DNA of 64,000 nucleotides from Amphiscolops sp. MND2022. Taxonomy: Eukaryota. Position 1 is the first letter of the stretch, and every line of letters begins with the position of its first letter. The stretch lies in assembly GCA_964187785.1 (NCBI GenBank), contig OZ076409.1, positions 5,644,001-5,708,000 of the forward strand, in the 5' to 3' direction. The notes beneath the pieces are model-generated. The model did not search any database, was not told the origin of the DNA, and saw only the letters and a list, made by a program, of their open reading frames with translations. This document shows, piece after piece, positions 24,201 through 60,397 of the stretch. The position numbers and the translations under genes are program-made.

Positions 24201-26484
24201 GCATTTTGCTTTTTAAGTTAGGTTGAAATAAAACTGCACCTAGGCCAATTAAAGAGGCATCGACAGTTATATAAAATGGATGGGTAGTACTTGGAATGGC
24301 AAGTTCTGCATCTCTAGAAAGAGAAAGTTTGATTTGATTGAAAAGTTTATCGAGAGCAGGAGTCCATTCAAACAAAATATCATCTTGGAGAAGAGTGTAA
24401 AATGGTTTCAAGGAAATGTGTAGTTTGTTGATGAATTTGGAATAAAAATTCATTGATCCTATGAAGCGCAATAATTCAGTTTTAGAAATGGGTGTCTTTA
24501 ATTGGTGGATGGCGTCAAGTTTAGAGGAGATGGGTTTGATTGTATTATTACCAATTTCATGTCCAAGAAATTTGACAGTGAGGAGGATATAGAAAGATTT
24601 TTCAGGAGCAATTTTAAGATTATTTGTTTGACAGATTTGGTAAAGTTGTTCAATTAAATTTAACATGTGAGGTTTTGTATGTGCAAGAAGGAGAATGTCA
24701 TCTATATAAACTAATGCAAAACCTTGGTCAATAAGTTTTTGAAAAAATGAATACATTTGTTTGGTAGAAAAATTGGGTAGGCCTTTAAGACCATAAAATC
24801 CATGAATAAAAGCGTAATGTTTGTCACCAGAAGAGAAACTATTTAAGGTTATAGTTTCTTCATCTAATGGAGCATGAGCGTAAGCATAAATGAGATCAAT
24901 GGCGGCTTTGAATTTTTTGTTAGCACGGGCAAGTTTGGGAGCTAAAGGTTCAATAGGCCATGATTCGGAAGATTGATCGGTATTTGAATTAAGGTGTCGT
25001 GCGTCCAAAACGACTTTAATAGTATCTCCTTTAGGGATAATAATGAAAGAGCGTTTAAAAATGTGGTGCCATATATGGATTTGTCAGAATGAGTAGAACC
25101 AATTTGGCGGATAATATTGTGTTTTTCTAAGTCATCAAGGAGTGTTTTTAATTTTTCTCTATAGTGAATAGGAACTTTTGTCGGTCGTTGGGTTTGAAGT
25201 TTGTCATTAGGTTTAAGACGGATTCTAAAAGGAGTAGCTATTTGGCCAACATCGTTTTTGTGTGTTGTGTTGCATAACAGGTACGATATTTAACAAGAAT
25301 GGAGCAGAGTTGTAAGTATTCTTCATCAGTGACATCAGAATACTGGAAGTTAAATTTATTGAGGAATTGTTGAGTGTCTGGTGAATATGGTAATGGTGGG
25401 AGGATCGGGTTAAAATTTGAGATGGTTGCAAATTGTTTATTTCAAATTGAGGGTTGCGAAGAGAAGAACGACGACGGAGAGGTTTTGGTTCTGAAAGATC
25501 AGGATAATAAGAATGAAATACAGTGTGTATTAAGGAGTTTACATCATTAACTTTATATTGAGTTGGTTGAATATTAGTGGCTGGAACCTCAAAGTATCCA
25601 ATATATCCAGGAGCAAGAATGGCAGAATGGTGGGTAATATTTTGAATAATAACAGAACAACTAGAGGGTTCGGTATTAACATTTTGGTAGACTTGGAGAG
25701 AATTAAAAGTTGAGTTGAAGCGTGTATTAAAAAATGGATGAGGTGTGGAAGGGAATATGAGTTCGTTATCAGAAGTTTTAAACGTTAAAGGAAGTGTTGG
25801 TTGAATTGGGAAATGGATAAATTGAGAAGCGTTGAGTTTAAAATAGAGCTTATTTTTAACATTGATAGTGTATATGTAAGAAAAATATGGATAATCTTTT
25901 TCCTTATGAGCTGTAAAAGGGAGGGTGTTAATGCGAGATTCATGTGGAGTATTGAATGTCAGTGACAAACTTTCAATATTAAGAGTTTTAACATATTTTT
26001 CAAAAAAGGGAGTTCCAAGAATATTGTATTTAATATTGACTGCAGCAAAAGGAATAATAAGGGTACGAGTATTTCCGTGAAGGGAGGTATGAAGTGTAAG
26101 TATTAGATTATGAAGAATAGGTACTTCGGACTTATTAGCAACGGTTTAAGTTTTATATTCATTTTGATGTGGGGAATGTTTTGAGCATTTTAAAAAGTGA
26201 TCGGCTAAAATGGTAAAAGTGGGTAAAGTTAAAACACAAATGGATGCTCCACTATCAAGTAGGAACAAGAGTTCTAATTTAGAAGGGATAGAGGTATCCT
26301 CACTAGGTTTGAAAATGTATAAATTAATAAACCAAGTGGAAGGGGTAATAGCGTTGGCATGTTCAGTATAAGTTGAAGAAAGCTGAGATAACGGAGGGTT
26401 AGGGTGACACATGTTTATTTCAAAATTAGTTTCTGTATTGGAGTGGTTTTGAAGAGGTGGTGTAGATGGATGTGTAAGATTCAT
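21270..26484 (-). pseudogene. pol: pol of element B: protease, RT, RNase H, integrase (frameshifted)
   Basis: LLDSGAS (26146-26484); YIDD and VDAS...RELCAI...ADMLS (22843-25008); ISMD, IIDAFS, DRGTEY, TNGLVE and IGPY (21270-23090). Confidence 0.95.
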
Positions 26485-32081: not shown

Positions 32082-35000
32082 TTACAGTTTTGAGGGTGTA
32101 CTAAAAAGTCTATAATCTAATTTGGGTTGTTGTCGTAGTTTATAAGTAGTTTTAGTAGTTCTGTCAATTAGAGGAGGAAGTGAAGTTGTTTGGTTATGAG
32201 AGGAGTGTCTTGATCTGTCACTAGGGATGTTAGTGTGAGGGGTGGTAATTATATGTCTATATAAGGAGTTGTCATTGGTTGAGGAAGTTAAAGACTTGTC
32301 ATTGGATGTTGTAGATGGTGTATTTTGATTGGACGTACTAAATGATGATGGTGTCACAAATGTTTGAGAAGAATTATCCGTTGTGGATGGTGTCATGAAT
32401 GTTTGAGAATCTTCGTCTGATAAGGATTCGTCTGAGTTAAAAGGGGAAGAATCACTGTTTGCATATTTGGTAGGTTGTGGAATTTGGAATTGAGTTGTGT
32501 CTGAAAAGCGCATGAAACTACGCAAATGTGGATATAAGAGTGGTTCTTTTGGATAATATGGAATTAAATGATTTCTATGAACAAGTTTTGTAGAGCCATC
32601 TTGTGCAAGTAGTTCATATGTATTATCTGATAGTCTATCAATAGTTTTGTATGGTCCAATCCGAAGGGGTTTTAGTTTGTCAGAAAAATGTACGTGTATG
32701 AAATTGCGTTTTAAAACAAAGGTGCCAATAGGAAGGGGTTTACCTTCGTGGTAAATTTTCGTAATGTATGCGTGTGAATTGATTTTGCGTAAAGTGTTTT
32801 CGTATACTGTGGAAAATATTTGTAACATAGCAGTTTTTACGGCGAGAAACCAATGGGGAATGGGCTTTGAAAGTGTTTTATAAAAAAATGGGTTAAGATC
32901 TGATTTATCATAGTGGGAGTGTTCTGGAAGTTGAGAGCAATAGCGTAAAAAACATGTTTTAGAGGTGTCTCTATTAAGATTTAAATCGAACGTAAGGGGG
33001 ATTCTGGGTCTGGCGTGAAAAACAATTTCATGAGGAGAAATACTGAGTTCTGAAAGTGGTTGTGAATTATGTGCATAAGCGTACATATCGACTTGGAATA
33101 CCCAATCTTTAGGTGTGTCATGTAAGAACATTCGTAGATGTGTACCAAGATTTCTGTTTTGTACTTCGACAAGGCCATTTGTCCAAGGAGAGTAAGCTGT
33201 CCTAGGAGAATGACGAATTCCCATAAGTGTACAAAGGTGGGCCATTTCTTCATTAACATATTCTGATCCACGATCAGTGACAAGATATATGGGTGGTCCA
33301 AATTTAATAATCCAATGGTGTAGAAGAGTTTTGATTGCAGTCTTTGCGTTGTTTGATTTGATGGGTACTAAAACAACAAAGTGACTAAAAGCGTCAATTA
33401 TTACATGTATATATGATTTGTTGCGGGAGGGAGGATTAATAGGTTCTTTAGTGTCCATTGAAATGCGGTAATTCAAGGATGGAGCATGTTCTGAAAAGGA
33501 TTGTGTAGGAGCAGTTTGAATTTTCATGTTGAAGTGTTTATTGCGTTGACATTCAATAAAGTCATGTATAAAAATGGAAAGCCATTTTTCAAAAAATGGA
33601 ATGTAGTAATATTGTGCGAATGTATTATATGTAATTTTGATGCCTGTATGTGAGTGTTCATGAAGTTTGTTAAAAACAGTTTTGAAGAGTCGAAATGGAA
33701 GACATATTCGAATAGTAGCGCGTACAAAATCTGGAGTAAAAGATTGGTTTAGAGTAGTAGGGTGTTTATTATAAAAGATAAAAAGATTTGTGGAGTCATC
33801 TATAAAAAGTTCTGAAAATCTTTCGTAATAAGCATGTAGAAAAGGAGTGCCAGTAATAAGTGGTGTTAGAGTTTCAGGTTTTTCATTTTTTATGATCCAA
33901 GAATAAACAGTTCTAAGAACTGGGTCTTGGGATTGTTGTTGTTGAAGTGTTGTTTTGTCTAATGAATAGTCATCTGGGAGGAAAAAACCTTAAAAATAGT
34001 TTTTGTACTTAAAAAATGATGTATCATAGAAAGGTATATTCTGTGGACAATGTGTGAGAGATGGTAGTTTTGGTTGTACATTTTTTGCAGAAACAGATTT
34101 TGGTGAGGTTTTTGGGGTTAATTGGTTAGGAGTAGAATAGTTTTCTGTTTGTAATGTTGTGTCATGTAGGAAAGAAGAGTCAGATTTTGGAATTCTGGTA
34201 TATATATGATCTTCGTCATCGCTTGTAACGTCAGTATCATTGAGAGAGAGAGATTGTTGATGAAGGGTTTTTTTGTTCTTTTTCATAGGTGTTTTGAACT
34301 TGGTTTGAAAAAGAGTTATAGATTTGAATGAGAAAGATTGTAATGGTTTGACAACAATGTCATTTCCTTTATCATTGATACGAATAAAGAATTGCTCTGT
34401 ACCATAATCAGCGAGAATTGGGTGAGAGTCATGTTTTTGATGAGGTAAGATTTCTTCATGTTTAATTAAGTAATGTACAGGTTTAAGAGTGTTATCTTGT
34501 AGAAGTGCAAAATCAATTTGTGGTGGAAGTTGTTTGTGTTTTATTTGATTGAGTTGTAATTCAGTTTTTGTAAAAGAGCGACTTAACATGTCGGCAACAG
34601 AGATATTTTTTCCAGGAGTGTGAATTATTTTGAGTTTTGAAAATCTTGTTAATTGCATTTGAGCTCTATAAAAACAAGGACTAAGGTTATCTTTCTTTGT
34701 AAAACAATGTAATAAAGGTTTGTGATCAGTAAAAATGTGTATTGGATGGGGAGAACCAATGATAAGAAATTCATAGATTTGGAGGGCATGTACTATACCA
34801 AGAAGTTCTCTATCAAGTGTGGAGAGTTTTTGTTCTTGTGGGTTAAGTATACGAGAGTTGTACGATATAACTTTCATTTTGTTTTGTTCATTTAATTGGA
34901 ATAAGACAGCGCCTAATCCAATAAGGGAAGCGTCAACTGTAATGAAAAATGGATGTTTTGTATTTGGTATTGTAAGTACTGTTTCAGAAGTGAGAGACAT

Positions 35001-37123
35001 TTTAAGTTTTTGGAAAAGACTTTCGTGTTCGTCTGTCCATTTCCAAGGAGTGTTCTCATGTAAAAGATCGTAAAATGGTTTGAGTTTAATATGTAGTTTT
35101 TCAATAAATTTGGTGTAAAAATTGAGTGCACCAATGAAACTCATTACGGCAACTTTTCCAGTTGGAGAAGAGATTTTGTGAATAGCTGCAATTTTCGAAT
35201 GAATTGGTTTAATTGTATTGTAACCAATTTCAAGTCCAAGAAATTTGTCTTTAAGGAGCATGAAAAATGATTTTTCAGGGGCTAGTTTAAAATTGTTTTT
35301 TGTACTGATTATGTGTAATTGTTCTATGAGTTGGAAGATGTGTTCTTTAGAGTCAGATAAAAGTAATATATCGTCAAGGTAGACAAGAGCAAAACCTTGT
35401 TCTATAGGAGTTTTAAAGAAGGTAGACATTTGTTTTGTAAAGAAGTTTGGGAGTCCTTTGAGACCATAAAAGCCTCGGATGAAAGCGAAAAGTTTATCTC
35501 CTGAGGAGAAACTGGTAAGTTTAATAGTGTTTTCATCAAGAGGTGTATGTGCATAGGCATACATAAGATCACTAGCAGATTTGTACTTTTCGTTTGCGCG
35601 TGCTAATTGTGGAGCGAGAGGTTCAATAGGCCAAGATTCATCAGATTGTTCTGTATTGGAGTTAAGATGTCGAGCGTCTAAGACACATTTTATAGTATCT
35701 CCCTTGGGGATTATAATGAGAGGGTTTAAATAAGTTGTGCCATAAACGGGTTTGTCTTGTGGAGAGGAAACAATTTGTTTGATAATGTTATTTTTTCCGA
35801 GTTTTTTGAGAAGTACTTTAAGTCTCGGTAGTGAATAGGGACTTTAGAAGGACGTTTTGTCATAAGTTGAGCATTAGGTTTAAGTCGAATACGGAAGGGC
35901 GTTGAAATTTTTCCGACATCGTTTTTATGAGTTGCTTAACATGTTTTATACTTGAGTAACATATTGCAAAGAGTAATGTATTCGGTGTCTGTAAGGTCAG
36001 AAAATTGGAAGTTAAATTTATTAATAAATTTCAGATTTTCAGAAGTGTATGGTAGAGAAGGAAAAATGCGTTTTTCGGAAGTATGAGAAGTAGGCTGAAC
36101 GTTGTATAAAGGAGACGTTTGATTTGGAATGTCATCGTTTGTCATAAAAATTTGATGTAAGGAGAATTGAGGAGGAGGGGTTGTAGGATCATCGTATTGT
36201 ACAATATAGTTAATTTGTGGAAGTGGTTCAGTGATTTCAGGATGGTAGGTAGAGGTAACATTATGTATTAAAGTGTTAAAATCATTAACATGGAAGAATT
36301 TGGGTTTTTCTTTAGTAATTGGAACTTCAATGTATCCAATATGTCCTGTAGGTAGTGTTGCAACAAGTTTTGAGGTGTTTTGGATGATAGTTGCACAAAT
36401 ATCTGGTTTGTCATCAGTGAATACTTCAATGAAATCGAAATTTGTACGAAATTTAGTAGCAAAATAGGTATGAGGTACTGAAGGGAAGAAGTGGTTTTGT
36501 GGTGTTGTAAAATGGAGGTTATGATAATTTTTCATTGGAAAGTGTGCAATTTTTGAAGACTTGGGTTTTAGACGTATTTGAGTTTTTGAATTAATTCTAT
36601 AGATGTAAGAGAAATATGGATAGTCTTTAGATAGGAGTGTTGTGAACTTTGCATAATTTGAGTGTGTTTTTGATTGGTATTTGAATTCGAGTGTAAAGTC
36701 TTGCATGTTTATGTTTTGTATATTGTCTTCAAAAAATGGTGTGCCAAGAATGTTGTATTTGATATCAGCTACTGCAAAAGGTACCGAAAAGTAACGGGAG
36801 TTTTCATCAATAGTAGTGTTCAAAATTATATTTGCATAATGTAAAATAGGAACTTCAGTTTGGTTTGCAAAGGTTAATGTTTTGGAATTTCGAGTTGTTC
36901 TAACATCAGAAGTGTGATTTGATCTGATATCTAAGAGTTTCGTAAGAGTTATGTATGTTGGGTAATTTAATACAGAAATGGAAGCACCGCTATCTAGAAG
37001 GAATGCAATTTCCAATCTAGATGGGTTGTCTCTTTGTACTATACTTGATGGTGTATGTACATACAATGTACAAAACCAACTTGTAGGTTTGACAGCATTT
37101 GCCATTGCTGTTGGGTGATACAT
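32082..37123 (-). pseudogene. pol: pol of element A: protease, RT, RNase H, integrase (frameshifted)
   Basis: LLDSGAS; YLDD; VDAS...RELLGI...TDHKPL...ADMLSR; ISMD, DRGSEY, TNGLVE and IGPY. Confidence 0.95.
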
Positions 37124-41374: not shown

Positions 41375-41635
41375 TGAGCTGTTAAAAAGTAGTGTTGTAT
41401 TTTCTTTTAGATGTTTTATTACAGACATAAGAAGTCTAAGATTTTAACAGCAGAGTCGTCTTACTTTATACCTTGTAGCTAGCTAGTTCTTGGTACAATC
41501 TATTTCTGAGATCTCATTTCTTGAAGTGCTGGAGAGAAGACCGATCGTCAGGATGAATTCTCAATTTCTCGGAGTAGATATATTCTATTAACTAGGGTAG
41601 GTTTCATCAATTAACAATGTGACAGCAACAGGATG
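41375..41635 (-). repeat. 5' LTR of element A, first fragment (split by C)
   Basis: Matches 6277-~6537. Confidence 0.93.
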
Positions 41636-42365
41636 TGTAACGATAAGCGCTGGCGCTTGAACCGCAACGTAGAGTGGAGGAACTAGAACAGCGAATATAA
41701 TCTGGGACCTAGATCTCCGCGGCCCTAGCTCATTTTCCCTCCGAAGGAGCCAGTCCCAAGGTCGGGGAACCGTCTTGTAGGACGCTCTCTGGCCTGGTCC
41801 TAGTCTGTAACTGCTAAAAGTAACAGGCATCTTGCAAGACTCAAGACCACTGCTCAACTAGCCTTTAAAAACTGGGCTGAAAATCGATGAAGGTTGAACC
41901 GTAACATTGGAGAACCTGATAAAATCGCCAAATTGGTTAAACAGATGTTAAACAACAGCTCTCGAGCATATTAATCTACCACATCGAAAAATACAACAAG
42001 AAATCAAGAGTTCAGAGTCATTTGATGAAAATTGACCTCAGGTTCCCAGCGCTAGCGCTAGTTGCCACACAGGATACCGCAGGGATACTCAGGCGAACAT
42101 CTGGAACACTGGTTTCCTTTACTGTAGTAATGGATATCTCCTAGAGATTGACACAATACTGTGTTCTGTATGCGTTGGGGACGTCTTTTTAGTCGTCTCC
42201 GGTGCTTGTTCGTCGCGAGCGGCGATTTCTGCTTTTCTGGGGTGCTTTTTCTGGCAGGTACTTCGTCTTGAGCATGTTTGAGTGCCACGTCAAATTTGAA
42301 CGAATTTTTGACAAAATTTTCTAAACATGTCGGTTGATATTGCTGTACCAGAGCTTGCCGTTACA
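41636..42365 (-). repeat. 3' LTR of element C
   Basis: Matches 59513-60242. Confidence 0.97.
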
Positions 42366-43121: not shown

Positions 43122-46100
43122 TTATTGAGCTGAACTGCGTCGGGTCCGCTCTTTAGTGGCATCATCTAGGTTCTGTTCTGGGTTATCAGTCGACACTGAC
43201 GCTCGACGTCGGGGAGAAACTTCTGTGGTAACTGTTTCAGAGTCCGACGGACTTTCGGGGAGCGACAACTCGGCAATAGGCTGCACTAGTGCTGCATTGG
43301 GAGTCAATTCGGCAGTGTGCTCTCCGGACTGCTGCTGCGAGGACTGAGGGCTCGTTCGCGACGAAGACGGGCCAACTGGGTCTGGCTCCAAGTTATGGGT
43401 TGGAAGGTTAATGGTGATCGGTTGAGAGATGGGCCGATCCAAAGACATCGCAATCGTTGGTGCGAGCATGGTAGGCGCGAACGCCTGTTGTCTCGCTATC
43501 TCTGCTCTACCTTCTACCGCTAGTGCTACACGGCGTGAGATCCATCCAGATTGGCTCCAGAGCTCGCAAGCTCTCTTCGATTTAGGGAAGCTTGCAATCT
43601 CCAACTCCAGACAGTACTCTTCCGATCTCGCTCGTTCTGTTGAGCCCAACACGGAATTTATCTCATCGTGCTGAACGATGGACATATCTCCAGACATGGT
43701 CATCTTTCCCGTAGGTTTCCATGCCGACTTCCTGGGGAATGCGCTAACGCGGGATTGGAGATTCCTTTGCCTGATCTGAGCAGCGCCTTCAATCCATCCT
43801 GGGATCTGGGCTGACTCCAAGTGTTGGATTTGGCGGTTGAACACCTCTGGGGCGCGTCCAACGGGTTTCGCCCTAGGCCAACCTAACGGCTCCTTCCAAT
43901 AGCGGTTTGGGAAGGCGATGCATTTGAAGCAGTATAAAGGGTCCACAGGTGGACCAGCACTAGTGCTGGCGCGAATCGCCTTTCTTATGAACTCTTGACT
44001 CCAGGGGAACCTAAAGGGGACCCCTTCCAAACTGAGAGGTGCAGAGTACCAGTTCACTGGTCCATGCTCTCGGGGTAGAGGACAAGCTTTCCTGGTGCGC
44101 GCGCGCAGCAAACCCATCAGGTTCTCCTCCAACTCTCTTTCGGATTTTATGGTCGTGTACCCATGCGGCATCTCACCACTCAGCACTGCATGTATTACCC
44201 TTGGATACGCCAGCGAGGGACGGCCCCGCAGGTAGGTACTAAAGGAGACCATGTGTACTTGGACGGCTGTTGCCAATGGTTTTGTTGGGTATCGGCACAC
44301 GCCCACTGCGCCAAAGATAGGGGCCAAGACAGGAGCCATGGCTGCCAGGAAATCTTCTACTTCAGCCAGGGTCAGATCTACAATCTGCTGCGGCAAGGAG
44401 AATCCTGCCGTTTCCCGTGGGATCTGCTGGTCTGAGTTATGTAGTGGTTGGGATTGGTCCACGCCCACGAATAGACCGGAGGCGAACACCAGGGTGGAAT
44501 ATAGCCAGTGTTGGATTGACGCACGCATGCGCTCCAGTTGGGCGGAATAGTCTTGCTGGTCTTTGGAAGTCATCAAGTGTCCCTAGCGGGTCAGGCTGCG
44601 TAGTTGTCCTTGTGCTAGGACCAAGTAGCTGTAGAACACGGTGAGGTCGCAGGCAATCACTATGTCGACCAACAAGGCCAGTGGTCCGGCTACAAACTTG
44701 GTTGGACCCAACGCTAGCGCGAGCGCTAGTATTTCTCCGACAGTTGCCTCTCCAATCGTTTCTAGCAGCTTGTCCGTTTGCGTGGGGGTCAGCGAGAACT
44801 CAGAAGTTAGTACCTCAAGGTTCCATCCTAGACCAAGACTGGTACAGAAGGCTTCCAATGGACAATTGAGCTCTCGAGCTACTTCTGCCAGAGTTCTGGT
44901 GGCAAACCTAGTCTGGTACCAATAGGCATAAGTGGCGGCTGCGGCGTCCACCTCTGCCTTCAGGCTTGTTGCTTCCATTGCTACGATGCACCGCAGTCCT
45001 ACAGGCAGCTTCACGGGCTCGATTCCTGAGGCGAAGTGGATCTGAGGAATTGTTCTCTCGACGGTGCGCGCTGCAGGCCATGCACCAATTTGTTTTGTCA
45101 GGTCGTCTAATTCTGCGCGCACTGGGATTTCTTTGTCCTTTCGCACTAGCCAGTTGTACCGACGAACAGCTTCTCGTTCGGTTACGTTGGACTCTCGGGC
45201 AATGCGATTGCCGTCAAGGTCAAAGGCCAATCTGCCCATCCGCATTCCATAATCATAGAGGATAGCGTGATCAATGGATAGCTGGGCGTTTCCCGAGCGT
45301 TCTATAGCCACGAGCGCTCTAGATACGGCGGCAAAGAAGGCTGGATACGATAAGGTATCTGGGCGCAGGTCCTCTCGGTCCACACGCAAGTTTGGTGCAC
45401 AGATGGCGAATTCGACTCTGCGCGCCTTGCATACCTCCAGCAGAATGTAGACGAACTTCTGCAGACTTCGTGGCCAATACATGAATCCTGGTGGGGATAC
45501 AAAGAGCGCGAGCGCTCCCAGACGACCCCGAAGGATCCATGCGGCACGTTCCATTGCACCGACCACCTCATTTACCAGGGCGGCAATGTCTCCAAGTCGT
45601 CGGACATTGGACATTATGGCGTCCAGGTCATGCAGCAACCCTTCGCAAGCCATGTGATCCAGAAGATTGGCAAAGATCACGCGCTGTGGGGGTGGTTCCT
45701 TTTGTGATCCTCTTAAGTTTGGATCGTACATGGCTCCAACCATCTCAACGACCTCAGCGAAGCGAGACAGGGGCATAGTTAGCACCAACACGTCAGGCAT
45801 TAAATTGTCAATGGGAAGGTCACTTCGGCAAGTAGAATCAACCGCCATGCAGTAGCGCGCGCTGCAGAGCTGCTTGCAATAGTGGTTTCAAAGATCTCAC
45901 ATTGCGAGCGTAGCGGGCGTTTGCTTCCCATGTCTCACCTTCTCGCAACACATACCGTGCGGGGAATTGCTCAGTGATATTGTGTTGCAGGGGGGCCATG
46001 TAATCGTTGGTTGTCATAGGCAGCTGCTCTCGAGCACGCTGTTCCCAAGCCTGCTCCGACATGTCTGCGTCACGGGGCGGAGCGAACGCGTGACTTGCGC

Positions 46101-47419
46101 CGGTATCGTGGTTCGGTTAATCTCCTTTTGCTCCGTTTCAGTTGGAGGGGTCCTTTTCTTGATAGCGCATTGACTGGGATAGAGATGCTCAGCCGCCATC
46201 CAAATGCGTTTGGTGACTACTGAGCCGGATACGTCGTCAGATGGAGGGAGAAAGGCTGGAGGATGGGCTTCCTCCACCGTCTCAGGTATCTCCAGGGACA
46301 TATCGATTGGATTGGTGCCCGAGGGCACAGAGCTCACTTCCGAGCCTGCATCCGGATCTCCAATATTGTCCGATCGCGTCTGCTAAAGACATTTGAGGTG
46401 CGCTTCGGCCTAGATGACCCTCCCGGTACGGGGGCCTAGGGATGACCACACTCTTCAGCTGGGGCCGAGGTACATCAGCGCGCTTGTCGGGAGGGGGACG
46501 ACTAGTCGGGCTCTCGGTTACCGAGCCAGCTGGGGTAACTGAGACAGTTTCTTCAGTTAGCCGCTTTCTCCCCGCTTCTTCTCGTGTGCCAGTGGCAGCG
46601 CTTGCGCTGTTGCTCGGTCCAGCGACAATTTCCATATCCATAGACGCTGTCTCGACTAAGGGAGCAGGAGGGTCACAGCCCGCAGGGCTGAGCAGCAGCT
46701 TGCAGATACGTGGCTAGTCCAGGGATTCTCTGCTCTACGGCACGAACGAAATCGGTGGAGTTGGGATAGTTCGCCACTGCTTGCAAGGCCACAATTACGG
46801 CCTGTTCGCTGGTACTCCTTCCCGTCAGCTCTGGGTTGTGTATGGGTGGTAACCGGGACCCCGAGGGCTCCCGATCAGAGACTGGTGCATTAGTAGTGGT
46901 TTGCAGTACCATGTGTGGTGCTCGATATGAGGTTCCAAAGACAGGCGAACCGGAATAAGTTGGCGTCATTGGTACTGGCTTTGGTGCTGGTGGGGGCAGT
47001 GCGACCATCTGAGGAGGAGGCATTGTTGCTACGCTGGCAGGCACCAAACACAGTGAGGCTTCTTGCTCGAATCTCGTGCCTTGGCTGGGCCCGAGCATTG
47101 TGGTAGAACGTTCATCCAGGAACTCGTGCGTCAGATCGTGGCCATCCCACGCATTGTTTTGGCAGGTTAGGGTGCGACGGTAACCGGCTACTTCGGTCAC
47201 CAGAGACACGGATACGCCCGGCAGCGTCTGCATTGTGTCTAGTTGGGTGAGTAGGGCGGCCACGCCCGCTACTGCTAACGGTGAGAGGCCGTTCCTCAGT
47301 CGTTCTTCTACGTATTGGACTTGATTAGTCCTCTGCGCTCGCGCAGGCAATTCTTGAGTCCTACTGGCGTGAGGTCCCGTCGTGGAAATAGGTACCGTGT
47401 TGTTGGGGTAATAAGCCAT
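43122..47419 (-). pseudogene. Large third ORF of element C (frameshifts plus one in-frame TAG), with a candidate SGNH-like domain
   Basis: Consecutive ORFs 46673-47419, 46282-46641, 46014-46337, 45838-46062, 44583-45848 and 43122-44576; the last two are in the same frame. Confidence 0.7.
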
Positions 47420-47704
47420 TATATCATAGGTCTAAAAAGGATTACCGTTTGGCTTACCAAGTGCATTGTGGGGAGAGCTTAAGGCTCATCATTCGGCTGC
47501 AATAGTACAAAGATGGTTCCATAGGGGAACCGCAACAAGTTTAAATTGTAGTTCAACTAACTAATTAGAACACAAAGATAGAAGTTATCTAACGCTACGT
47601 TACAATGTAATCATTTCATGGGATGGTTTGATACTTCCTCCCAGGCATAACGATTATCGGGTGGGTGAATTGAATAGGGGGAAACAAAAAGTATTTTGAG
47701 CGGG

Positions 47705-50700
47705 CTACTCCAGCCCTATGTTCAGAATGGACACATACACGCGGTTATGCAGCACCACGTGAATGCCAGTGCCCTCCAGCAAATTCGTTAGGGTATGGTA
47801 TAAGTTTACCAATGAAAGGGCGGGTCGCTCTGGGTCCAGTATAGGTAGGTTCTCCATCAAACGCTGTATCAAGTGCATCATACGACGTAGGTAGTCGTCT
47901 GTGAGCAGCGGCGCACGCTGGTTTGCTCTGATTATTAGCAAGTGAATACTCTGATTGGGGTTTGGGTTGATATACATACAATACATTCTCCTTGCCGCAT
48001 TCTCGTAGCACGTACCGTAGGGCGGCTGAGTTGGTCTCTAGGTCAGCGGGACACGCTAACACCATATCACCTTCTACTTGAAGAAAATCAGTCACATCAT
48101 ATGAGAGGTGCTCTGTTGGGGCTGGATGCAGGATTCCCGGGTAGATAATCTCTCTCCCCGGCCCATTGTCGGCAGGCAAGCATACGCGGAGCGTACGCCC
48201 CTGGATTGCAGCCAGGTCTTGCCATACCGAGCGTGGCATCGCTCGATTATCACTGCTCGCCCTAACCCATGTGTCTAGGGTGCTCGAATCTCGAAAGTAT
48301 GAGTCCACTCGTCCAGCAATCTAATGCGAGGATAATTGGGGAAACAAGTGATGATCAGCTCCAACCACCACGCGAATTTCACTTTGCCACGATACCAGTC
48401 TATGATGTGGAAGCACAGTATCAAGTCCGCGGTAGTGAGGGTCCTCAGACCTTCCAAGCAGGACAGTAGGTGCAATGGCTCCACTATTGCCTCCACTCGT
48501 GGAGCAGTGACCAGCAACCACCAGTGCGGCGCTGGGCTGTATACTCCGCCCGGATCCACGTGAATTCCGTATTTGTCACAGAGAAGATCAGCGGTGATGC
48601 ATCGGACCATTTGCACAGGCTCCCGCTTGAAGTTGAAGGGTCCAAAGGCAATATTGCTGGGTAGTGGTGGCATCACCGTTGCGAGGGTGAACTCTAACCC
48701 TTTTCCGTCGCTAGTCCACTCCTTGAATCGAGGACATGGGGCCTTCGCTACTCCAGGTAGTGATAACTTCTCCAGGATAGTGTCCACGGGATGGTCTCCG
48801 TGTCGTTCCAGGGAGGAATAAGTCTTTTCAGCTCTCACCGTAAGGCGATGTACTAGATTTTCTCCCCGCTCTGGAGGGACTCCCCGGGCTCCAGTGGGAA
48901 CCCTCCGGTTCTCATTGACGGCTAGCAAGCAAACACAGTCTCGCCACCCACAGGTCCCGCACTTATAGCGTGGCTGCCGCCTGCTTCTCAGCTGGTATCG
49001 GGGGACCTCAGAAGTCTCGGTCGGTATTGCTGTTTCCGACGGCATTATTGTTGTTGTTTCTTTCTTCCTCGTTCTTGCCTTCGCTCTGACCTGCCTTTTT
49101 CGCGTTTTGGGTGGTCTCCCCCTCCCCCTTTTAAAAGAAGGAGCGGTCCCCGCTCCGGGCAATGTTGTGGAAAGAGTAGGGACATTGGACTGAGCGTCGT
49201 CACTCTCAGTGGCGGATTTCAGAGGAAGGGAAGGAGCGGCCGGCCAAATAGGATAGCTGTTGAGGAAACTCGTTAGTGATGGATTTGTCAGTAGTGGGGC
49301 CGATGTTCCCAGTAAGGAGGGCTGTTTTTCGGGAGAGGATATTCGTGGTAACGGAGAGCGCACGCGCTCATGGTCGGAGAATAGTTGGGGCAGATAATGG
49401 GTAGGTGATATTGATTGGTCTGAAGGGAGTTGGGGTTCGGGCTCCCTGCGATCAGCATCAACGGGATCAGGAGGTACCGGTAACATGATTTCGGACAACT
49501 CGTCGTCAGTGCCCGAGGTTGAGTAGTCGAATTGCTGGTAGTGCATGCGGGAACCTCCAGCACGTAACTTTGTGCGCAGACGGGTATCCATCCAATGTTG
49601 TTTGCGCGAAGGCAATGACACGTCAGATGCTTCTGAATGTAGTTGTTCAGTTTTATATGAAGGCCGGGACTTATCGTCGTCAACTGCTTCAATGGAACGT
49701 TCAGGGTCAGGGTCCATGAGTACCACTATTTCGCCGCTGTCCGCTTGCGCGGTGGCGAGCTCAAGGGGCCCACTATGATGAGGTTTCAGGCGCTCAAAAT
49801 GAACCTTTTGGCCTGTGTCCAATACGTAGACACGTCCTTCTTGAAAAACTTGCACTATTTTGTGCGGGCCACGCCAGGCGCGCATCAGTTTTGGAGAGCC
49901 TTTTTGCGGCACGTAGCGGCAAAAAACCCAGACAAGCTCTCCCGGCTGGTAAGCTCGTGCTCGGATAGCACGATCATATTTCAGTTTTTGGTGCAATTGG
50001 GCTTGGTGCGTGTTGCGCCGGACCAAGTCGTGAATTTCTTGTTGGCGAGCCAACACAAGATCCACGTATGCTTCATGCGTGTCGAAGGACTTGGCTGCAA
50101 ATTCGGGGTACAAAAAGGTGAGGGGAATTGCTTTCTCAACACCCCTTTTAACATAAAGGGCGAGAAGCCTGTAGTGGCGTGCCGGGTGGAATTATAGGCA
50201 CCGATTACTTCATCTAAGCACTGATCCCAGTCGCGCATGCGACGTGAGCAAAAGACTCGCAACAAGGTCAAAAGGGTGCGGTTTTGCCGTTCCACCAAGC
50301 CTTGAGTTCGCGGATGTCCGGCAGTGGAGGTCACCTTAGTGACGTGAGCTGCCTTTAGGAACTCATTAGAGACTTCGGCAGTGAGGTTTGGAGCATTGTC
50401 TGATTGCATGCGAGTGGGGTTGCCGTGGCGGGCAAACACTTCTGCAACAGCAATCGTGAGGTGGTTACTGCGTCATAGTCCTGGTGACTACAAGGGACTG
50501 CCTCTGCAAATTTAGAGAAATGGTCGATGATGACCAAAATGCCAGTGTTGTTTTTATCAGAGGGGCAGATTTTTAAGTGGTCATATTGGACCAACTCGTT
50601 GAAGTAGCCACTCTGAATGTTTTTCAATTGGAATCGTACGTCACCAGGCTTGTCACGTACTTGTTGGCAGGTGAGGCATTGGCCGACGTATCGACCGACA

Positions 50701-53039
50701 CGGCGCCGTATGCCGGGCCAGGTGTGGCGCTCTTGAATTCGAGCTACTACCTTTGAGATACCTTGGTGTCCCATTGCGTCGTGCGCACGGAACAGAATCT
50801 CGTGCTGGTACAGCTGAGGCATTATGATCATGCACGAACGTTCGTGCAGTGGGCGTTGGGTGGGGGAGTATTGCACGCAAAGGACATCATTCTTGTTTAT
50901 GAACAAGAGGTCCTTTTTCTGGCGGAAGTAATTACGTGCGAACTCACGCACGTTCTCGGGAAACACATCATTATCTAGGGATTCACACTGCACGAGCTTT
51001 TTCAGCGCTAGCACATGGACATCGCGGTTTTGGGCTAAAACCAAATCCTTGATCCCATGCACGGTGTGAGTGTGTTCATGGAGCTCGGTGTCTATGTCCT
51101 TGAGGGCCATGATCGACTCGCGCACGCCACCAGGAGAGTTCTGTAGCATGGCGTTACTCGTTCCCGTCACAGAATAGATGGTGCGCGAGGGGACATTTAC
51201 TGCATGTGTTGGCAGCAGGTAATCCCCACTCGCCTCAGTGGTGACGTCTATCCAGTCTTCAGGATAGTCTGGGTAGAAGTCTTCGTGTTTTTGCAGTACG
51301 GGTGGAGGCTGAGGCGGTAAAGGCGCGGCTAGCGCCTTTGCCTGTCGTTCTCGCTTGTTCGCTCGTTGCACACGGCGAAGCACACGGAGTGCTTGGTCAG
51401 GAGCCTTAGGCTCCAAGTTCTGCAGATGCGGTGGTAGGTCAGGATGATTTGGAATGATTCGACCTTGCAGGTCGAACCATGGGGCTATGGGGAGGTTGTC
51501 GAATTCCTCAGCGGAGAGGAAATTCCAACGCTCTCCATTAGCTGGCAGCTGCGCAAGCTGCTGTTCTCGGCATCGATAATCGTTGGTTCGTTTGCTCAAG
51601 CCATCAGCATTGCGGTGTTGCGTTCGTGGTCTGTGTTCCACGCGAAAGTGATACCTGTCCAGTGTCATAATCCAACGTCCAATCAATGCTTGGTCCGTGG
51701 AGTAGGTTTTCAACCAGGATAGGGCTTGGTTGTCGACTCTCAGGGTGAACTTTCGGGGACAAAGGTAGCTGTGGTACTTGAGGATGAAGTAGTAGGCAGC
51801 AAACATGTCCAGCTTGGGTGCCCCAAATTTGGCTTGGGTGGTGGTCAGTTTCTTGCTGCCGTATACGATCGATCGTAGGCGTCGCTCTCCTGGAGCTCCT
51901 TGCCACTGGTGTAGGATACCGGAAATGGCAACAGCGCTGGCATCTGTGTCCAGCACAAACTCTCCTTCGGAATTAGGCTGCGCGAGCGCAGTCGCCTCGA
52001 TCAATGCTGTCTTGATTTCGTTGAAGGCTTTCTGTTGGTCAGGACCCCATGCAAACGTGGCATTCAGTCCCGTAACGGCGTGGAGGGGCGCCACCAGCTT
52101 GGCATGCCACGGGATGAATTCACGATAATAATTGGCGAATCCCAGGAAACTTTGCATTTCAGTTTTGTTGCGGGGGATGTCCCAATCGCGCAGTTCGGCA
52201 ACAACTTTCGGGTCCGGTTTGACACCTTCTGCGGAGACCACGCGTCCCAGATATTTGATTTCTGGTTTCATGAAGTCGCATTTGGCTACGCGCATCTTGA
52301 AGCCAGCTTCGCGGAGGCATTCAAAAACCTCGCGCAAACGCGCCATGTGATCCTCCACAGTCTCAGTTGCTATAACTATGTCGTCGATGTATCCCATGAC
52401 CATGCTGCCTTTGCGATTGAGTATTTTTTGCAGCGCTCGCGCTATTGCTCGCTGGAAGGTGGCTGATGCATTGCACAAGCCAAATGGCATTCTTCGCCAT
52501 TCAAAGAGTCCCAACTCACAGGCAAAGGCTGTTTTGTGGCGGTCCGCCTTTCGCAAGGGAATTTGCCAGAAAGCCCAGGCAAGATCTATGCTGGTGTAGG
52601 TCTTTGCATTGCCCAGTCGCGCCAGGCTTTCATCGATACGGGGCAGGGGGTAGGCATCCTTAATGGTTACTTCATTCAGCGGTCGGAAGTCACAGCAAAA
52701 ACGTAACTCCCCGCTTTTCTTTTTCACCATTACGATACCATTTGCCCATGGGGACAGTGAAGGTTTTATCATCCCTAAGGCCAATAAGCTCCGAACCTCC
52801 TGGTTGGCTCGTTCAGCCTTTTCGGGGGACATTCTGCGAGCACCTTCACGGTGCGGTACAGCCTCAGGCTCTACATCTATGGTGTGTTTAGCAATGGTAC
52901 AGCGGCCAATATCCGCCTTGCGTTTCATGAATAGGTCGTCAAACTCGTTAAGAATGTTGTCTAAGGACTCGCAGGCGCTAGCGCCCCAGAGTTTTTTGAC
53001 TTCTTGCAATTGAGAATCGGGCCCAGGGATCGGGGCCAA
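47705..53039 (-). pseudogene. pol: pol of element C: RT, RNase H, integrase and a long C-terminal extension
   Basis: MPFGLCNA, YIDD, LDTDAS, VDNQAL, NADGLS; H-x4-H...CLTC; IIDHFSK, SDNAP, QGLVERQN, WRGPH. Confidence 0.95.
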
Positions 53040-56000
53040 TAGGTCGGGATCGGTTCGCTTGCGAATCTCGCGCTCCGAAAGCCCGCTTCACTTGGATCCG
53101 TCGAAGACAAAAACTCAAATTCAGATGAAGAAGTTAACTCAGAAGCAGTGGATAGATTCATTTCACTGTACACTTTATAAACAAAATTTGCTCGACTGTT
53201 GTCGGCTTCAGTTTTGTGGTCAGCTTCCACAGTAGCATCCAGCTTTTGGGGCACAGCCTGGTATACTAGAGACACAGGCACTACCGTGCCTAGGTGGGCA
53301 CCACATCGTACACGCTGCTGGTTGCTGGTGAGGTTTACCAGGCTCACATACAGTGTTCCTGTCTCACTGACAGTGGCCACGCTGTCCTGGGTGTGTGCAT
53401 GATGCCAGACGGGCTTCACGGGTGCTCGCACCACTATCTTCATGGAGGTTAGATCTACCAAGACTTGGTAGGAACGGAGGAAGTTTCTACCCAACAGAAA
53501 GTCCTCCACGCCCATTGCGTCATCTACCACGACGAAATTGGTTTCGAGTTCATACCCTCCCAACTGGAAGCGTATCTGCTCAGCCAACCCGAAAGTCTTT
53601 ATTGTATTCCCATTGGCAGCGTACAAATCAATTGGATAGGGTTTCAGGACCACTCCGGTCCGTGCAGCTACCCGGTTGAAGGCGGAGAAGGTTAGTATGG
53701 ATACTCCGGAACCAGTGTCCACCAGGCCTCGCTGTGGAATAGGTGCCGCATGGGGCACCACAAAGGAGACAACGAGCGACGCACGCTCATCTATTCGCGC
53801 TTCCCCGGTGGGTTCTTGGTGGTTGATATTATAGCATTTCAGCTCTTGAGGTCCCAAGCATAAGCCGGGTGGGAATACATCTACCACCACACAGGCCTCG
53901 AATTTCACGTCCACGCCGTCCATCGTTGCGCAGACTGGTACTGGCGAGTATGTAGTAAGGGTCTCCGACTCTCCAGGGACGTGCCACTGTTTTGAGCGGG
54001 GCAATTCCATCCGGTTATAGAGGACAGATAGCTCAACCCAGAATTTCGCCAAGGTTAGCGTTGGTCTACGCACCTGCTCGGCTGCCAGCATAAGATGAAT
54101 CGAGATCAACGTTCTCCCTTGTGGATCGAACCTGGTAGGCTCCAAGCACGTCTGAATCTGCTTTGTCCCACATGTAACTATCAGTGGGGGGTGAAACGCT
54201 GGGGGCTCCGCTGGGTGTAGCATTAATACGCGATCATCTTCCAGGGGTACCGTGTGGGCGGCCACACCAGCGGATTCCACCTCGGCCCATCGATTGTAGG
54301 CCAATTCATCATTAGGCCTCGGAGCTTGAGAATGCTCACTACAGGGGACATCCACATGGTCATAGACTCCACAGTGCGCACACTGATGAATGCCTGGATA
54401 GCTCTCCAACACGCCATCAGTTACGTCTTCAGCAGTGACTTTCACGCCTTCTGGTTCAGGAGCTGCCACTGGTTTGCGAGCTTGATCACGGGTGGGACAG
54501 TCCCGGGCAAAATGCCCAGCTTGTCCGCAATTATAGCACGCGCCAACGGGCAGGCGTGCCGCAGGCTGCACTGCTGCTTGATTGGGGGGAGCATTACTCG
54601 CAGGTGGGGGAGGCATTACTCCTTGTGGTAACACCATTTTGTTGGGGGGTAGTGGCGCGAAGGGATGAGGTCGAGACCTCATTGCTAGTCTGGGGTCATA
54701 GGGTTGAGGGAATTGGTTAGGTTTGGGACGGTTGCGCTGCAATTGGCGGGTGGTGAAGCGGAGGGATTCCACCGTAGGTGGCTCGGTCAGGAAGACTTCC
54801 GAGGCATACACTATGGCCAGCTCCCGCCTCAGCGCTGGGTTTCGTACACCTTCCATGAAGCGCTGGAGGATTTCATAGCGCTTGGTGGTGATTGTCTCTT
54901 GCGGAAATCCTTGACTCCGAAGACCCTCTAGAGCGTCCAAATACTGCATCCAGTCTTCTTTCTCATGTTGAATGCGGGTCTGGAAAGCTTGTCGTACTTG
55001 CATACGATTTCCTCCAGCGCCGAAGCGGCTGGATAACAATTCGAACACCTTCGCGGGGGTGTCACGTTCGAATTCCGCTTTGTTGATGATGTAGTTGCGG
55101 GCTTCACCTTCAAGGTGACCGATGATGCTCCAGGCCTGGTCCTCGGCTGAGACCTTGGTTTGCGTTCTCTTCAGGTATCTCTGCATAATAAGGATCCACC
55201 CATCAATGGATCCGTCTTTAGAACCGCGATATACATTGGGTCTCGCCTGAGCCAAGTCTCTGCCGGCGAGTAAGGGCGCTAACTCTTTTGACATCGCCTT
55301 TGATATGGCGGCCGTGAATCTCAGCTACTCGGGGGATATGGCTTCTCCTTCATCGGCCTTGGCCTCCCCCTCGCGTGTCCTGTCATGACTACCAAGAGGG
55401 GCTTGTATCGACAGGTCAGCGATTTCGTCCTTTTTACGAGTGCTGCTAGCACAGGGAGTGCCCGAGGGCAGTCCATGTTCGGCTGACAAGTCTGCGGTCC
55501 AGTATAAGGAATCTGGTCCTGACATCGAAATGGGGGCAGTTGCAAACGTTGCTCCCTCGGTTTGAGAGCCTAGGGTTGCTTTGGTGTTAGATAGGTCGAC
55601 TTCAACCGAGGAATCAAGATAAATGGTCGACATCGGGTCCACGCCTTGATCTCGAGTGGTGCTCTGGATTGCAGAAGGCATCGATGATTCTGCTGAGTCG
55701 TGATGTCCCCTCATCTGCACTCGTGCAGGCTTGCGCTCTGCCTCAGGCGTGGCTATCACCAAATTTCCGGCTACTCCTTCATCTTTCCGGGGCGCAGGCA
55801 CTGCCGGCCTGGAAGTGCTAGGCTTTAGCGCGCTCGGCAGTTCCGACTTCACTACCTGGCTCGGGCACGTCGGCTCCGCGATACGGACTGGGCCTCCATT
55901 CCGCACGCCTCCACTTGCACTGGGCTGCCGCGGGAGTGACCTCTCACGCCTCATGACATCAATGGCATTGAGTACCGTGTGCATCTGATTGCTTAAGTCG

Positions 56001-56801
56001 TTGATCTGCGTTTCCACGCGCAACTCGCGAGCCATCAACGTGTCATTCATCTCTCCTATCCGGTGACCCAATGAGTCCACTCGAGCATTTTGCACATTCT
56101 GCGCGGTACGCAATTGATCGCTGACCTGCAGGCCCTCACGCATCGTCGTCTGCATCACTTTAATGTTCTCCACGATGGCAAGATGTTGCTAATTGCATTC
56201 TGGCCAGACCTGCTAGGGCCCGTTGGATTTCGGCTTGGGCATCCAGTAGCGCTGCCTTGTATACTGAAGACCGTTGCGACGAGGCCAGTGAGCCTGTCAT
56301 ACTCCTGACACGAGATACCTCTTGACGTGGCTCGCCTACCTGTAGTATGGGTGGTCGCACCTTCTTGTGCTTCCCGTAGGCTCAGAACCGGGTAGGTCCT
56401 CGAGTGGCCCCGAGTCCTCGCTGTCGCGCGTAACTCATGCCCCCCACATAAGTGAGGTCCTGCTCTATTTCGGTCTGTGAGCCAAGTTGTCTCTCTCCAG
56501 CCGGGGGTGCGCGCGAGCACCCTTCCTCAGCCGCCAATTCATCGGTTGCATTCGAATTGGGCCAGCCCTCTTCCACTTCATTGGCTCTATCGCGGCAAGT
56601 TTCGTCGACCCACTGCTCGGTTCGGCGTGAACTTCCAGAAACACTGGAGTTCTCTGAGGGAGGAACCATAGCGGCCAATTCCTCTTTTCGCTGTTGTTCG
56701 ATAGTGACTTCGTCAGACATGTCGTCTGAAAAACGCGAACCCTCTATCGTGACCCATGATTGTGAACCGGTATGGGGCACCGCCATCGGTTCGGTGGCCA
56801 A
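52961..56801 (-). pseudogene. gag: gag and protease of element C (frameshifted)
   Basis: HLEGEARNY capsid-like motif; CYNCGQAGHFARDC knuckle; LVDTGSG...FLLGRNFL protease. Confidence 0.9.
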
Positions 56802-59512: not shown

Positions 59513-60242
59513 TGTAACGATAAGCGCTGGCGCTTGAACCGCAACGTAGAGTGGAGGAACTAGAACAGCGAATATAATCTGGGACCTAGATCTCCGCGGC
59601 CCTAGCTCATTTTCCCTCCGAAGGAGCCAGTCCCAAGGTGGGGGAACCGTCTTGTAGGACGCTCTCTGGCCTGGTCCTAGTCTGTAACTGCTAAAAGTAA
59701 CAGGCATCTTGCAAGACTCAAGACCACTGCTCAACTAGCCTTTAAAAATTGGGCTGAAAATCGATGAAGGTTGAACCGTAACATTGGAGAACCTGATAAA
59801 ATCGCCAAATTGGATAAACAGATGTTAAACAACAGCTCTCGAGCATTTTAATCTAGCACATCGAAAAATACAACAAGAAATCAAGAGTTCAGAGTCATTT
59901 GATGAAAATTGACCTCAGGTTCCCAGCGCTAGCACTAGTTGCCACACAGGATACCGCAGGGATACTCAGGCGAACATCTGGAACACTGGTTTCCTTTACT
60001 GTAGTAATGGATATCTCCTAGAGATTGACACAATACCGTGTTCTGTATGCGTTGGGGACGTCTTTTTAGTCGTCTCCGGTGCTTGTTCGTCGCGAGCGGC
60101 GATTTCTGCTTTTCTGGGGTGCTTTTTCTGGCAGGTACTTCGTCTTGAGCATGTTTGAGTGCTACGTCAAATTTGAACGAATTTCTGACAAATTTTTCTA
60201 AACATGTCGGTTGATATTGCTGTACCAGAGCTTGCCGTTACA
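59513..60242 (-). repeat. 5' LTR of element C
   Basis: Matches 41636-42365. Confidence 0.97.
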
Positions 60243-60397
60243 ATGAATCTAAGAAGCTTGTTACAGGATATATTAAGTGAAGTTTCTTCTAGAATAATTA
60301 GCTTTCAAATGAGATTACCTTTACTAATTACTTTGGAAAAGAGTTCTGAGTATTTCAGACTTGTAGAATCTTTGCGGACATGCATCATGGCATCACA
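60243..60397 (-). repeat. 5' LTR of element A, second fragment
   Basis: Matches ~6582-6736 and is followed by the CATC TSD. Confidence 0.93.

What the first reader, a model, noticed from the sequence alone, without database searches (positions are those of the whole stretch)
47705..48670. Two tandem Poa1p/TARG1-like macrodomains apparently fused behind the integrase of C
Seen: repeat 1 reads MVRCITAD...WWLLVT...LLSCLEGLR...KVKFAWWLELIITCF. Repeat 2 (across frameshifts) reads LSYDVTDFL...MVLACPAD...SIHLLIIR...YLRRMMHL...LPILD...LSLVNLYHTLTNLLEGTGIHVVLH. Known: TARG1/OARD1-type macrodomains follow GDLF...LAHCIS.D...IYYLITK...LQKSLEAM...MPRIGCGLD.L.W..V..MIEEVF...IKITVY. Order and spacing fit, but the Gly-rich loops and the catalytic Lys appear lost. 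Inference: degenerate ADP-ribose-reader modules, perhaps for chromatin targeting or anti-PARP counter-defence.
Basis: inference. Interest (0 to 1): 0.75.

Follow-up and report, generated by a model that had tools for sequence, protein, structure and literature searches.

The report
Twin disarmed macrodomains on retrotransposon integrase
A family of jumping genes ends its integrase-bearing polyprotein with two back-to-back domains predicted to fold like the ADP-ribose-removing enzyme TARG1 but lacking its key catalytic and binding residues, so they likely work as a repurposed tether to a host chromatin partner; the copy in this window is broken.

Summary
Observation confirmed. 47705-48670 is the end of pol in an 18.6 kb Ty3/Gypsy element. 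The window copy has two frame changes here, but relative P0002 (3,113 aa) reads Gag to tail in one frame, and 54 of 59 long integrase-bearing relatives hold both repeats at the C-terminus. Both repeats are predicted TARG1-class macrodomains: repeat 2 Foldseek E 1.4e-9, Z 17.3; repeat 1 folded alone E 2.3e-6, Z 12.3. Sequence evidence alone is weak (E about 0.2, no Pfam hit). The 'reader / anti-PARP' reading is disfavoured: repeat 2 has Arg for Lys84 (229 of 238) and Glu for Gly123 (194 of 205), and G123E blocks ADP-ribose binding in TARG1 (PMC5928194). Both repeats share a D-x-x-R loop, suggesting duplication after disarming. Best reading: a conserved non-catalytic tethering module in the slot where other Gypsy integrases carry chromodomains; partner untested. 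The scan noted single TARG1-type domains in retrotransposon Pols before, on other DNA (unchecked notes); fish ERV macro domains are published. New variant; interest 0.5.

The parts
48305..48667 (-). M1: compact TARG1-class pseudo-macrodomain (about 120 aa), unbroken in this copy; Ala/Ser at the Lys84-equivalent place, D-x-Y-R-G-K in place of the phosphate-binding loop
   Evidence: AF2 pLDDT 88.9, pTM 0.83; Foldseek top 8 all C6orf130/TARG1, best E 2.3e-6; VIA Z 12.3, rmsd 2.9, 117 aligned; coordinates; residue census
48114..48304 (-). M1-M2 linker (about 69 aa in relatives, two predicted helices, low confidence); frame change near 48285 in this copy
47741..48113 (-). M2: full-size TARG1-class pseudo-macrodomain (about 145 aa in relatives); frame change near 47970 in this copy; Asp20-equivalent kept, Lys84 place Arg, Gly121-Asp125 place D-P-E-R-P/S
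   Evidence: model of P0002 tail; Foldseek 4j5s E 1.4e-9, TMt 0.81, rmsd 2.5; VIA Z 17.3, rmsd 2.4, 139 aligned; profile-to-TARG1 alignments E 0.19-0.34; census
47705..47740 (-). conserved terminal R-V-Y-V-S-I segment and stop of pol
   Evidence: 54 relatives end 11-20 aa after M2
48929..48961 (-). CxxC-x4-CxC cysteine cluster upstream of M1 (likely metal-binding; inference)
   Evidence: sequence; present in 60 of 60 long relatives
49106..49132 (-). AT-hook-like K-R-G-R-G-R-P-P-K motif followed by a basic run
   Evidence: sequence; Pfam AT_hook only E 1.2, below cut-off, on P0002; R-G-R-P in the last 900 aa of 59 of 60 long relatives
50098..50819 (-). integrase zinc finger and core, split over frames in this copy
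   Evidence: Pfam Integrase_H2C2, rve, rve_3; frame changes near 50430 and 50150
50355..53087 (-). RT - RNase H - start of integrase frame (Ty3/Gypsy order)
52961..56188 (-). gag, zinc knuckle and aspartic protease frames
59513..60242 (-). 5' LTR, 730 bp, TG...CA
41636..42365 (-). 3' LTR, 730 bp, 10 mismatches to the 5' LTR

Best explanation
The region is the C-terminal end of a Ty3/Gypsy Gag-Pol polyprotein and holds two tandem domains predicted to have the TARG1 macrodomain fold, which have lost TARG1's catalytic Lys/Asp and glycine loops and likely act as a non-catalytic tether that docks the integrase on a host chromatin partner. Shown: in-frame position behind integrase in natural relatives; family-wide replacement of the residues. 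Predicted: both folds. Inferred history: an ancestor carried one TARG1-type domain at the Pol end; its phosphate-binding loop changed to D-x-x-R; the altered domain was duplicated; M1 was then shortened. Inferred working: after protease processing the tail stays on integrase; the basic run and AT-hook-like motif contact DNA, and the two pseudo-macrodomains present new conserved surfaces (Y-R-G-K in M1; R at the Lys84 place and D-P-E-R in M2) to a host protein or chromatin feature, biasing where the element inserts. The window copy itself is broken in pol at five places and cannot make this protein.
For: One frame Gag-PR-RT-RH-IN-tail in P0002; both repeats in 54 of 59 long relatives, ending 11-20 aa from the C-terminus. 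Folds; the five best VIA rows for each repeat are C6orf130/TARG1, DarG, 2afc, DarTG and Poa1p. Disarming (register, ungapped from the Lys84 strand to the end): Lys84 place R 229 of 238, K in 1 (P0285); Gly121 place D 204 of 207; Gly123 place E 194 of 205; Asp125 place S or P 193 of 203; Gly43 place A 250 of 262. G123E and G43E TARG1 neither bind ADP-ribose nor hydrolyse (PMC5928194); G128E cuts SCO6735 activity (PMC9411070). Shared D-x-x-R loop: M1 D 260 and R 256 of 271, M2 D 204 of 207 and R 200 of 203, in the same columns of the M1-M2 alignment, also in the most distant fragments P0273 and P0285. Kept under selection: between P0002 and the distant subfamily M1 45-47% and M2 40-43% against 32-34% in the linkers; 50 of 2000 neutral simulations of M1 kept an open frame at 47% identity. 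Position matches that of chromo and Tudor reader domains on Gypsy integrases (PMC12477816; 10.1101/2021.11.30.470311). Tandem macrodomains that lost ADP-ribose binding and bind other ligands exist (SARS SUD, PMC2674928).
Against: No partner, insertion bias or cleavage site was tested; the tether role rests on position and analogy. The residue register comes from HMMER alignments of E 0.19-0.34, and for M1 only through the M1-M2 alignment; the model coordinates could not be inspected. The Asp at the TARG1 Asp20 place is kept (248 of 261), and SCO6735 is an active hydrolase without Lys84 or Asp125 (PMC9411070), so loss of these residues alone does not prove inactivity. The domains are much less conserved than the integrase core (70-72%). 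Counts include many near-identical and dead copies, so they are not independent; most of the 59 long proteins belong to one subfamily. No DNA of relatives was available for dN/dS.
Confidence: 0.5

Rival explanations
1. M2 (or the pair) still senses ADP-ribose or poly-ADP-ribose in an altered way, as a reader that steers integration to ADP-ribosylated chromatin or as a decoy against host PARPs.
For: Asp20-equivalent kept in 248 of 261; conserved Arg at the Lys84 place and in the loop could contact phosphates. The class tolerates loss of the dyad (SCO6735; ALC1-type readers; PMC9411070, PMC7050489). Retroelements carry ADP-ribose-related domains (PMC4977317; NADAR, PMC12477816).
Against: Both glycine loops are gone and Glu stands at the Gly123 place in 194 of 205; G123E blocks ADP-ribose binding and PAR-dependent recruitment of TARG1 (PMC5928194). 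M1 lacks the Asp motif altogether (F-G-P at that strand).
Confidence: 0.2
2. The pair binds nucleic acid, like the coronavirus SUD tandem macrodomains, and acts on the element's own RNA or cDNA inside the particle, possibly as a separately cleaved product.
For: TARG1 binds RNA independently of its ADP-ribose pocket, G123E included (PMC5928194); SUD binds G-quadruplexes (PMC2674928); conserved Y-R-G-K and several invariant Arg.
Against: Both domains are net acidic: median charge -2 (M1) and -3 (M2) over 35 sequences, whereas TARG1 uses basic patches. SUD chains score low against both models (Z 7.0-7.7), so the likeness is by analogy only.
Confidence: 0.18
3. The domains have only a structural role (folding, oligomerisation of integrase or capsid packing) or are slowly decaying leftovers of a once-active eraser.
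For: Identity (40-47%) is only about 10 points above the linkers and far below RT (81%) and integrase core (70-72%); no confident packing between M1 and M2 in the two-domain model (pTM 0.45).
Against: Open frame and C-terminal end kept across subfamilies at about 40% identity and in fragments at 22-30%; near-invariant replacement residues in loops point to a new selected surface, not drift.
Confidence: 0.12

Closest known systems
Human TARG1/OARD1/C6orf130 (PDB 4J5S, 4J5R, 4J5Q, 2LGR, 2EEE), ALC1-like macrodomain class with DarG, Bt_1257, Poa1p
   Same: Predicted fold and element order in both repeats; top structural match for each; only PDB sequence hits of profile A2 (5 of 5, E 0.19-0.3)
   Different: 12-17% identity; Lys84, Asp125, Gly41/43, Gly121/123 replaced; tandem; fused to a retrotransposon integrase; M1 about 25 aa shorter
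Macro-domain-bearing fish endogenous retroviruses (Basta et al. 2009, seen only as cited in PMC4977317; paper not held)
   Same: Macrodomain captured by an LTR retroelement
   Different: Retroviridae, described in the review as additional ORFs; whether any is tandem, degenerate or integrase-fused could not be read
Integrase C-terminal reader domains of Gypsy elements: chromodomain (chromoviruses, MAGGY), Tudor in Ectocarpus Gypsy-10 (PMC12477816 passages; 10.1101/2021.11.30.470311 passages)
   Same: Captured host-type domain at the very end of Pol, behind integrase
   Different: Different fold; their targeting role is described, here it is inferred
SARS-unique domain SUD-N/SUD-M (PMC2674928 passages)
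   Same: Two tandem macrodomain folds of a virus-like element that lost the glycine loops
   Different: Other macrodomain class (Z 7.0-7.7 to the models), basic nucleic-acid-binding surface, RNA virus; independent origin (inference)
NADAR-bearing Gypsy Pol of Ectocarpus (PMC12477816 passages)
   Same: ADP-ribose-related domain inside a Gypsy Pol
   Different: Unrelated fold, N-terminal in Pol, described as highly conserved

Membership tests
Ty3/Gypsy LTR retrotransposon | Two LTRs with TG...CA ends around gag-pol | tested here: met
   730 bp LTRs, 10 mismatches
Ty3/Gypsy LTR retrotransposon | Domain order PR-RT-RNase H-integrase | tested here: met
   Pfam on window frames and on P0002
Ty3/Gypsy LTR retrotransposon | Placement in a named clade by RT phylogeny | not tested
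Macrodomain fold, ALC1/TARG1-like class | Minimal alpha/beta/alpha macro fold with TARG1/DarG/Poa1p as nearest structures - repeat 2 | tested here: met
   predicted model: Foldseek E 1.4e-9, TMt 0.81; VIA Z 17.3, rmsd 2.4, 139 aligned
Macrodomain fold, ALC1/TARG1-like class | Same, repeat 1 | tested here: met
   predicted model pLDDT 88.9: Foldseek E 2.3e-6; VIA Z 12.3, rmsd 2.9, 117 aligned; ranks 1-3 within about 1 Z
Macrodomain fold, ALC1/TARG1-like class | Significant match to a Macro sequence profile | tested here: inconclusive
   PDB profile hits to TARG1 at E 0.19-0.34; Atlas Macro cluster 0.89; CDD Macro_Poa1p-like profile not available
TARG1/DarG hydrolases | Catalytic Lys84 (DarG Lys80) | tested here: not met
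   M2 R 229 of 238, K 1; M1 S or A 251 of 261
TARG1/DarG hydrolases | Asp125 of the TARG1 dyad | tested here: not met
   S 124, P 69 of 203
ADP-ribose-binding macrodomains | Glycine-rich phosphate-binding loop (TARG1 Gly121-Gly123) | tested here: not met
   M2 D 204 of 207 and E 194 of 205; M1 D-x-Y-R
ADP-ribose-binding macrodomains | Glycine loop 1 (TARG1 Gly41-Gly43) | tested here: not met
   Y/N/S at 41, A 250 of 262 at 43
ADP-ribose-binding macrodomains | Asp after strand 1 (TARG1 Asp20; its adenine-binding role is recalled, not from a call) | tested here: met
   M2 D 248 of 261; not seen in M1
ADP-ribose-binding macrodomains | Measured ADP-ribose binding or hydrolysis | not testable with these tools
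   needs biochemistry
Integrase C-terminal targeting modules | In frame at the end of Pol behind integrase | tested here: met
   54 of 59 long relatives
Integrase C-terminal targeting modules | Stays on mature integrase and biases insertion sites | not testable with these tools
   no host genome held

The most novel reading that the evidence does not exclude
An ADP-ribose eraser once carried by retrotransposons was disarmed, duplicated and turned into a new class of integrase-targeting module: a tandem pseudo-macrodomain whose D-x-x-R loop closes the ADP-ribose pocket and reads a different chromatin partner, alongside chromo and Tudor domains as a further way for Gypsy elements to choose insertion sites.
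Probability: 0.3. Interest if true: 0.75.

Novelty: new variant of a known kind. Interest (0 to 1): 0.5.

Why it matters
Domains at the end of Gypsy integrases decide where elements insert, and macrodomains on retroelements are usually read as a sign of conflict with host ADP-ribosylation. Here a whole multi-subfamily lineage keeps two such domains while carrying, in nature, the same substitution that biochemists use to switch off TARG1. It gives a small, well-folded, testable example of an enzyme fold reused by a mobile element, and it warns against annotating every retroelement macrodomain as an anti-PARP enzyme.

Tried and rejected
No host genome is held, so copy number, insertion sites and dN/dS could not be computed. 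Sequencing runs: none was listed. Pfam: no Macro hit on 11 window frames, 6 long relatives or 35 tails. PHROGs: only single-member weak hits, best phrog_335 'phosphatase' E 0.0066 in 1 of 35. PDB by sequence: 0 hits for a single M2 and for the 4-sequence profile; profile A4 gave 2 unrelated weak hits and no TARG1; profile A5 gave TARG1 in 5 of 9 weak hits, mixed with unrelated ones of like score. ESM Atlas: nothing for M1; for M2 unnamed phage and bacterial clusters at 0.90-0.91 and a Macro cluster at 0.89, leads only. No match in phages or metagenome contigs. No relative with intact TARG1 loops was reached: searches list only unnamed ENA proteins of this family, and only the best 150 of 377 hits were visible. 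The other two pol remnants in the window show no M1 or M2 match. Rejected: chance motif likeness (fold and shuffle controls), separate ORF behind pol, active TARG1-type eraser. Ten literature searches listed no paper on tandem or degenerate macrodomains fused to an LTR-retrotransposon integrase; the library lacks most subscription journals and Basta 2009; supplements were not read and Repbase-type reports are not covered. No complex prediction was run, as no specific binding partner is claimed.

Full report
Setting. The finding lies on the minus strand inside an 18.6 kb element bounded by 730 bp LTRs (59513-60242 and 41636-42365) that begin TG, end CA and differ at 10 positions. Pfam finds zinc knuckle, aspartic protease, RT, RNase H and integrase in the Ty3/Gypsy order. 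No host genome is held; earlier notes of the scan call it an animal genome (unchecked). The window copy is broken: against relative P0002 the frame changes between protease and RT, twice in integrase and twice in the tail.

Observation. A search with the tail of the window's frame 50191-48278 among longer proteins gave 59 proteins, all with an integrase core and up to 3,114 aa. P0002 (3,113 aa) is one frame from Gag to the tail, and its residues 2259-2894, 2904-3009 and 3020-3113 match the three window frames at 80, 77 and 78%. Of the 59, 57 hold a full repeat 1 (M1), 54 a full repeat 2 (M2) and 54 both, ending 11-20 aa after M2. Most of these belong to one subfamily about 40% identical to the window's tail, so they are not independent. 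The tail reads: integrase core, W-R-G-P/H-F-E-R-L-K region, low-complexity linker, AT-hook-like motif with a basic run (R-G-R-P in 59 of 60), CxxC-x4-CxC cluster (60 of 60), a short conserved stretch, M1, linker, M2, end.

Fold. Sequence profiles barely see the domain: no Pfam Macro hit, and a 35-sequence profile finds 5 PDB sequences, all human TARG1, at E 0.19-0.3, aligned end to end on M2. The AlphaFold2 model of the P0002 tail (mean pLDDT 65.6, domains confident, linker not) gives TARG1 as the best 8 Foldseek rows (E 1.4e-9, TMt 0.81, rmsd 2.5) and VIA Z 17.3 for C6orf130, 16.1 DarG, 14.4 2afc, 14.2 DarTG, 13.9 Poa1p, all on residues 204-351, that is M2. The window's own M1, folded alone, reaches pLDDT 88.9 and pTM 0.83 and again gives TARG1 as the best 8 Foldseek rows (E 2.3e-6) and Z 12.3 (rmsd 2.9, 117 aligned), followed by 2afc, DarG, Poa1p and DarTG at 10.2-11.4. 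M1 and M2 profiles match each other (score 29.8, E 2e-4; 30 shuffles at most 18.3). Both repeats are therefore predicted members of the ALC1/TARG1-like fold class.

Active site. In the printed alignments with TARG1 the register is ungapped from the Lys84 strand to the C-terminus. Over all 403 stored proteins (redundant, dead copies and fragments included) M2 has R at the Lys84 place in 229 of 238 (K once, in the distant P0285), D-P-E-R at Gly121-Leu124 (D 204 of 207, E 194 of 205, R 200 of 203), S or P at Asp125 (193 of 203), A at Gly43 (250 of 262), and keeps D at Asp20 (248 of 261). M1 has S or A at the Lys84 place (251 of 261, by way of the M1-M2 alignment) and D-x-Y-R-G-K in the loop (D 260, R 256 of 271). 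Lys84 and Asp125 are TARG1's catalytic dyad (PMC9411070, passages; PMC7050489, passages, writes Glu125). G123E and G43E TARG1 lose ADP-ribose binding and activity but still bind RNA (PMC5928194, passages); the corresponding G128E lowers SCO6735 activity (PMC9411070; PMC5087735, passages). Against over-reading: SCO6735 is active without the dyad, and I could not inspect the model coordinates.

Selection and history. Between P0002 and the distant subfamily, identity is 81% in RT, 70-72% in the integrase core, 45-47% in M1, 40-43% in M2 and 32-34% in the two linkers. A stop in the tail would leave RT and integrase whole, yet the frame stays open; 50 of 2000 neutral simulations of M1 (substitutions only) stayed open at 47% identity. 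The replacement residues are nearly invariant, also in fragments 22-30% identical. The shared D-x-x-R loop, absent from TARG1, suggests one disarmed domain was duplicated inside the element (inference; no tree was built, as no intact TARG1-type sequence was held).

How it likely works. Shown: position, conservation, loss of residues. Predicted: folds. Inferred: the tail stays on integrase and acts as a tether, in the slot where other Gypsy elements carry chromo or Tudor readers (PMC12477816, passages; 10.1101/2021.11.30.470311, passages), with the AT-hook-like motif touching DNA and the pseudo-macrodomains binding a host protein or chromatin feature (0.5). [quoted passage not shown]

Novelty. 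Macro domains in fish ERVs are published (Basta 2009, seen only as cited in PMC4977317, passages; not held), as is a NADAR domain in Gypsy Pol. PMC3417536 (passages) had nothing on this. The scan's own unchecked notes describe single TARG1-type domains in retrotransposon Pols in two other genomes and on two other pieces of this genome; look-ups by sequence with the window DNA, P0139 and P0147 found no look-alike, so I could not tie them to this family. Ten searches (listings) showed no report of a tandem, disarmed pair on an LTR-retrotransposon integrase; subscription journals and supplements were not seen. Verdict: real, new variant of a known kind, interest 0.5; the bolder reading, a new class of integrase-targeting module, has probability about 0.3.

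Noticed in passing
window 41633-41635 and 60243-60245: The target-site duplication looks like only 3 bp (ATG), judged from both flanks and from a paralogous empty-type site near 6580; Gypsy elements usually make 4-5 bp (recalled). One insertion only.
   Followed up: partly
window 43122-47431 (-): Three further long frames between pol and the 3' LTR (252, 434 and 486 aa) with no Pfam hit.
   Followed up: partly
P0285: The most distant fragment keeps Lys at the TARG1 Lys84 place of M2 (1 of 238) while already having the D-x-E-R-G loop, suggesting the loop changed before the Lys.
   Followed up: partly
window 48670-48850 (-): A conserved stretch of about 75 aa between the cysteine cluster and M1 (36-57% identity between subfamilies) may be a further small domain; not folded.
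   Followed up: no
window about 22270-25030 and 32990-35750 (-): Two distant pol remnants (23-29% identity to P0002 RT and integrase) in a low-GC, strongly G-skewed region; no M1 or M2 match.
   Followed up: partly
window 41375-41635 and 60243-60397: The element is inserted into another repeat whose second copy lies at 6277-6736.
   Followed up: no
window 4775-5816: Large imperfect inverted repeat, arms 80-90% complementary, MITE- or foldback-like.
   Followed up: no
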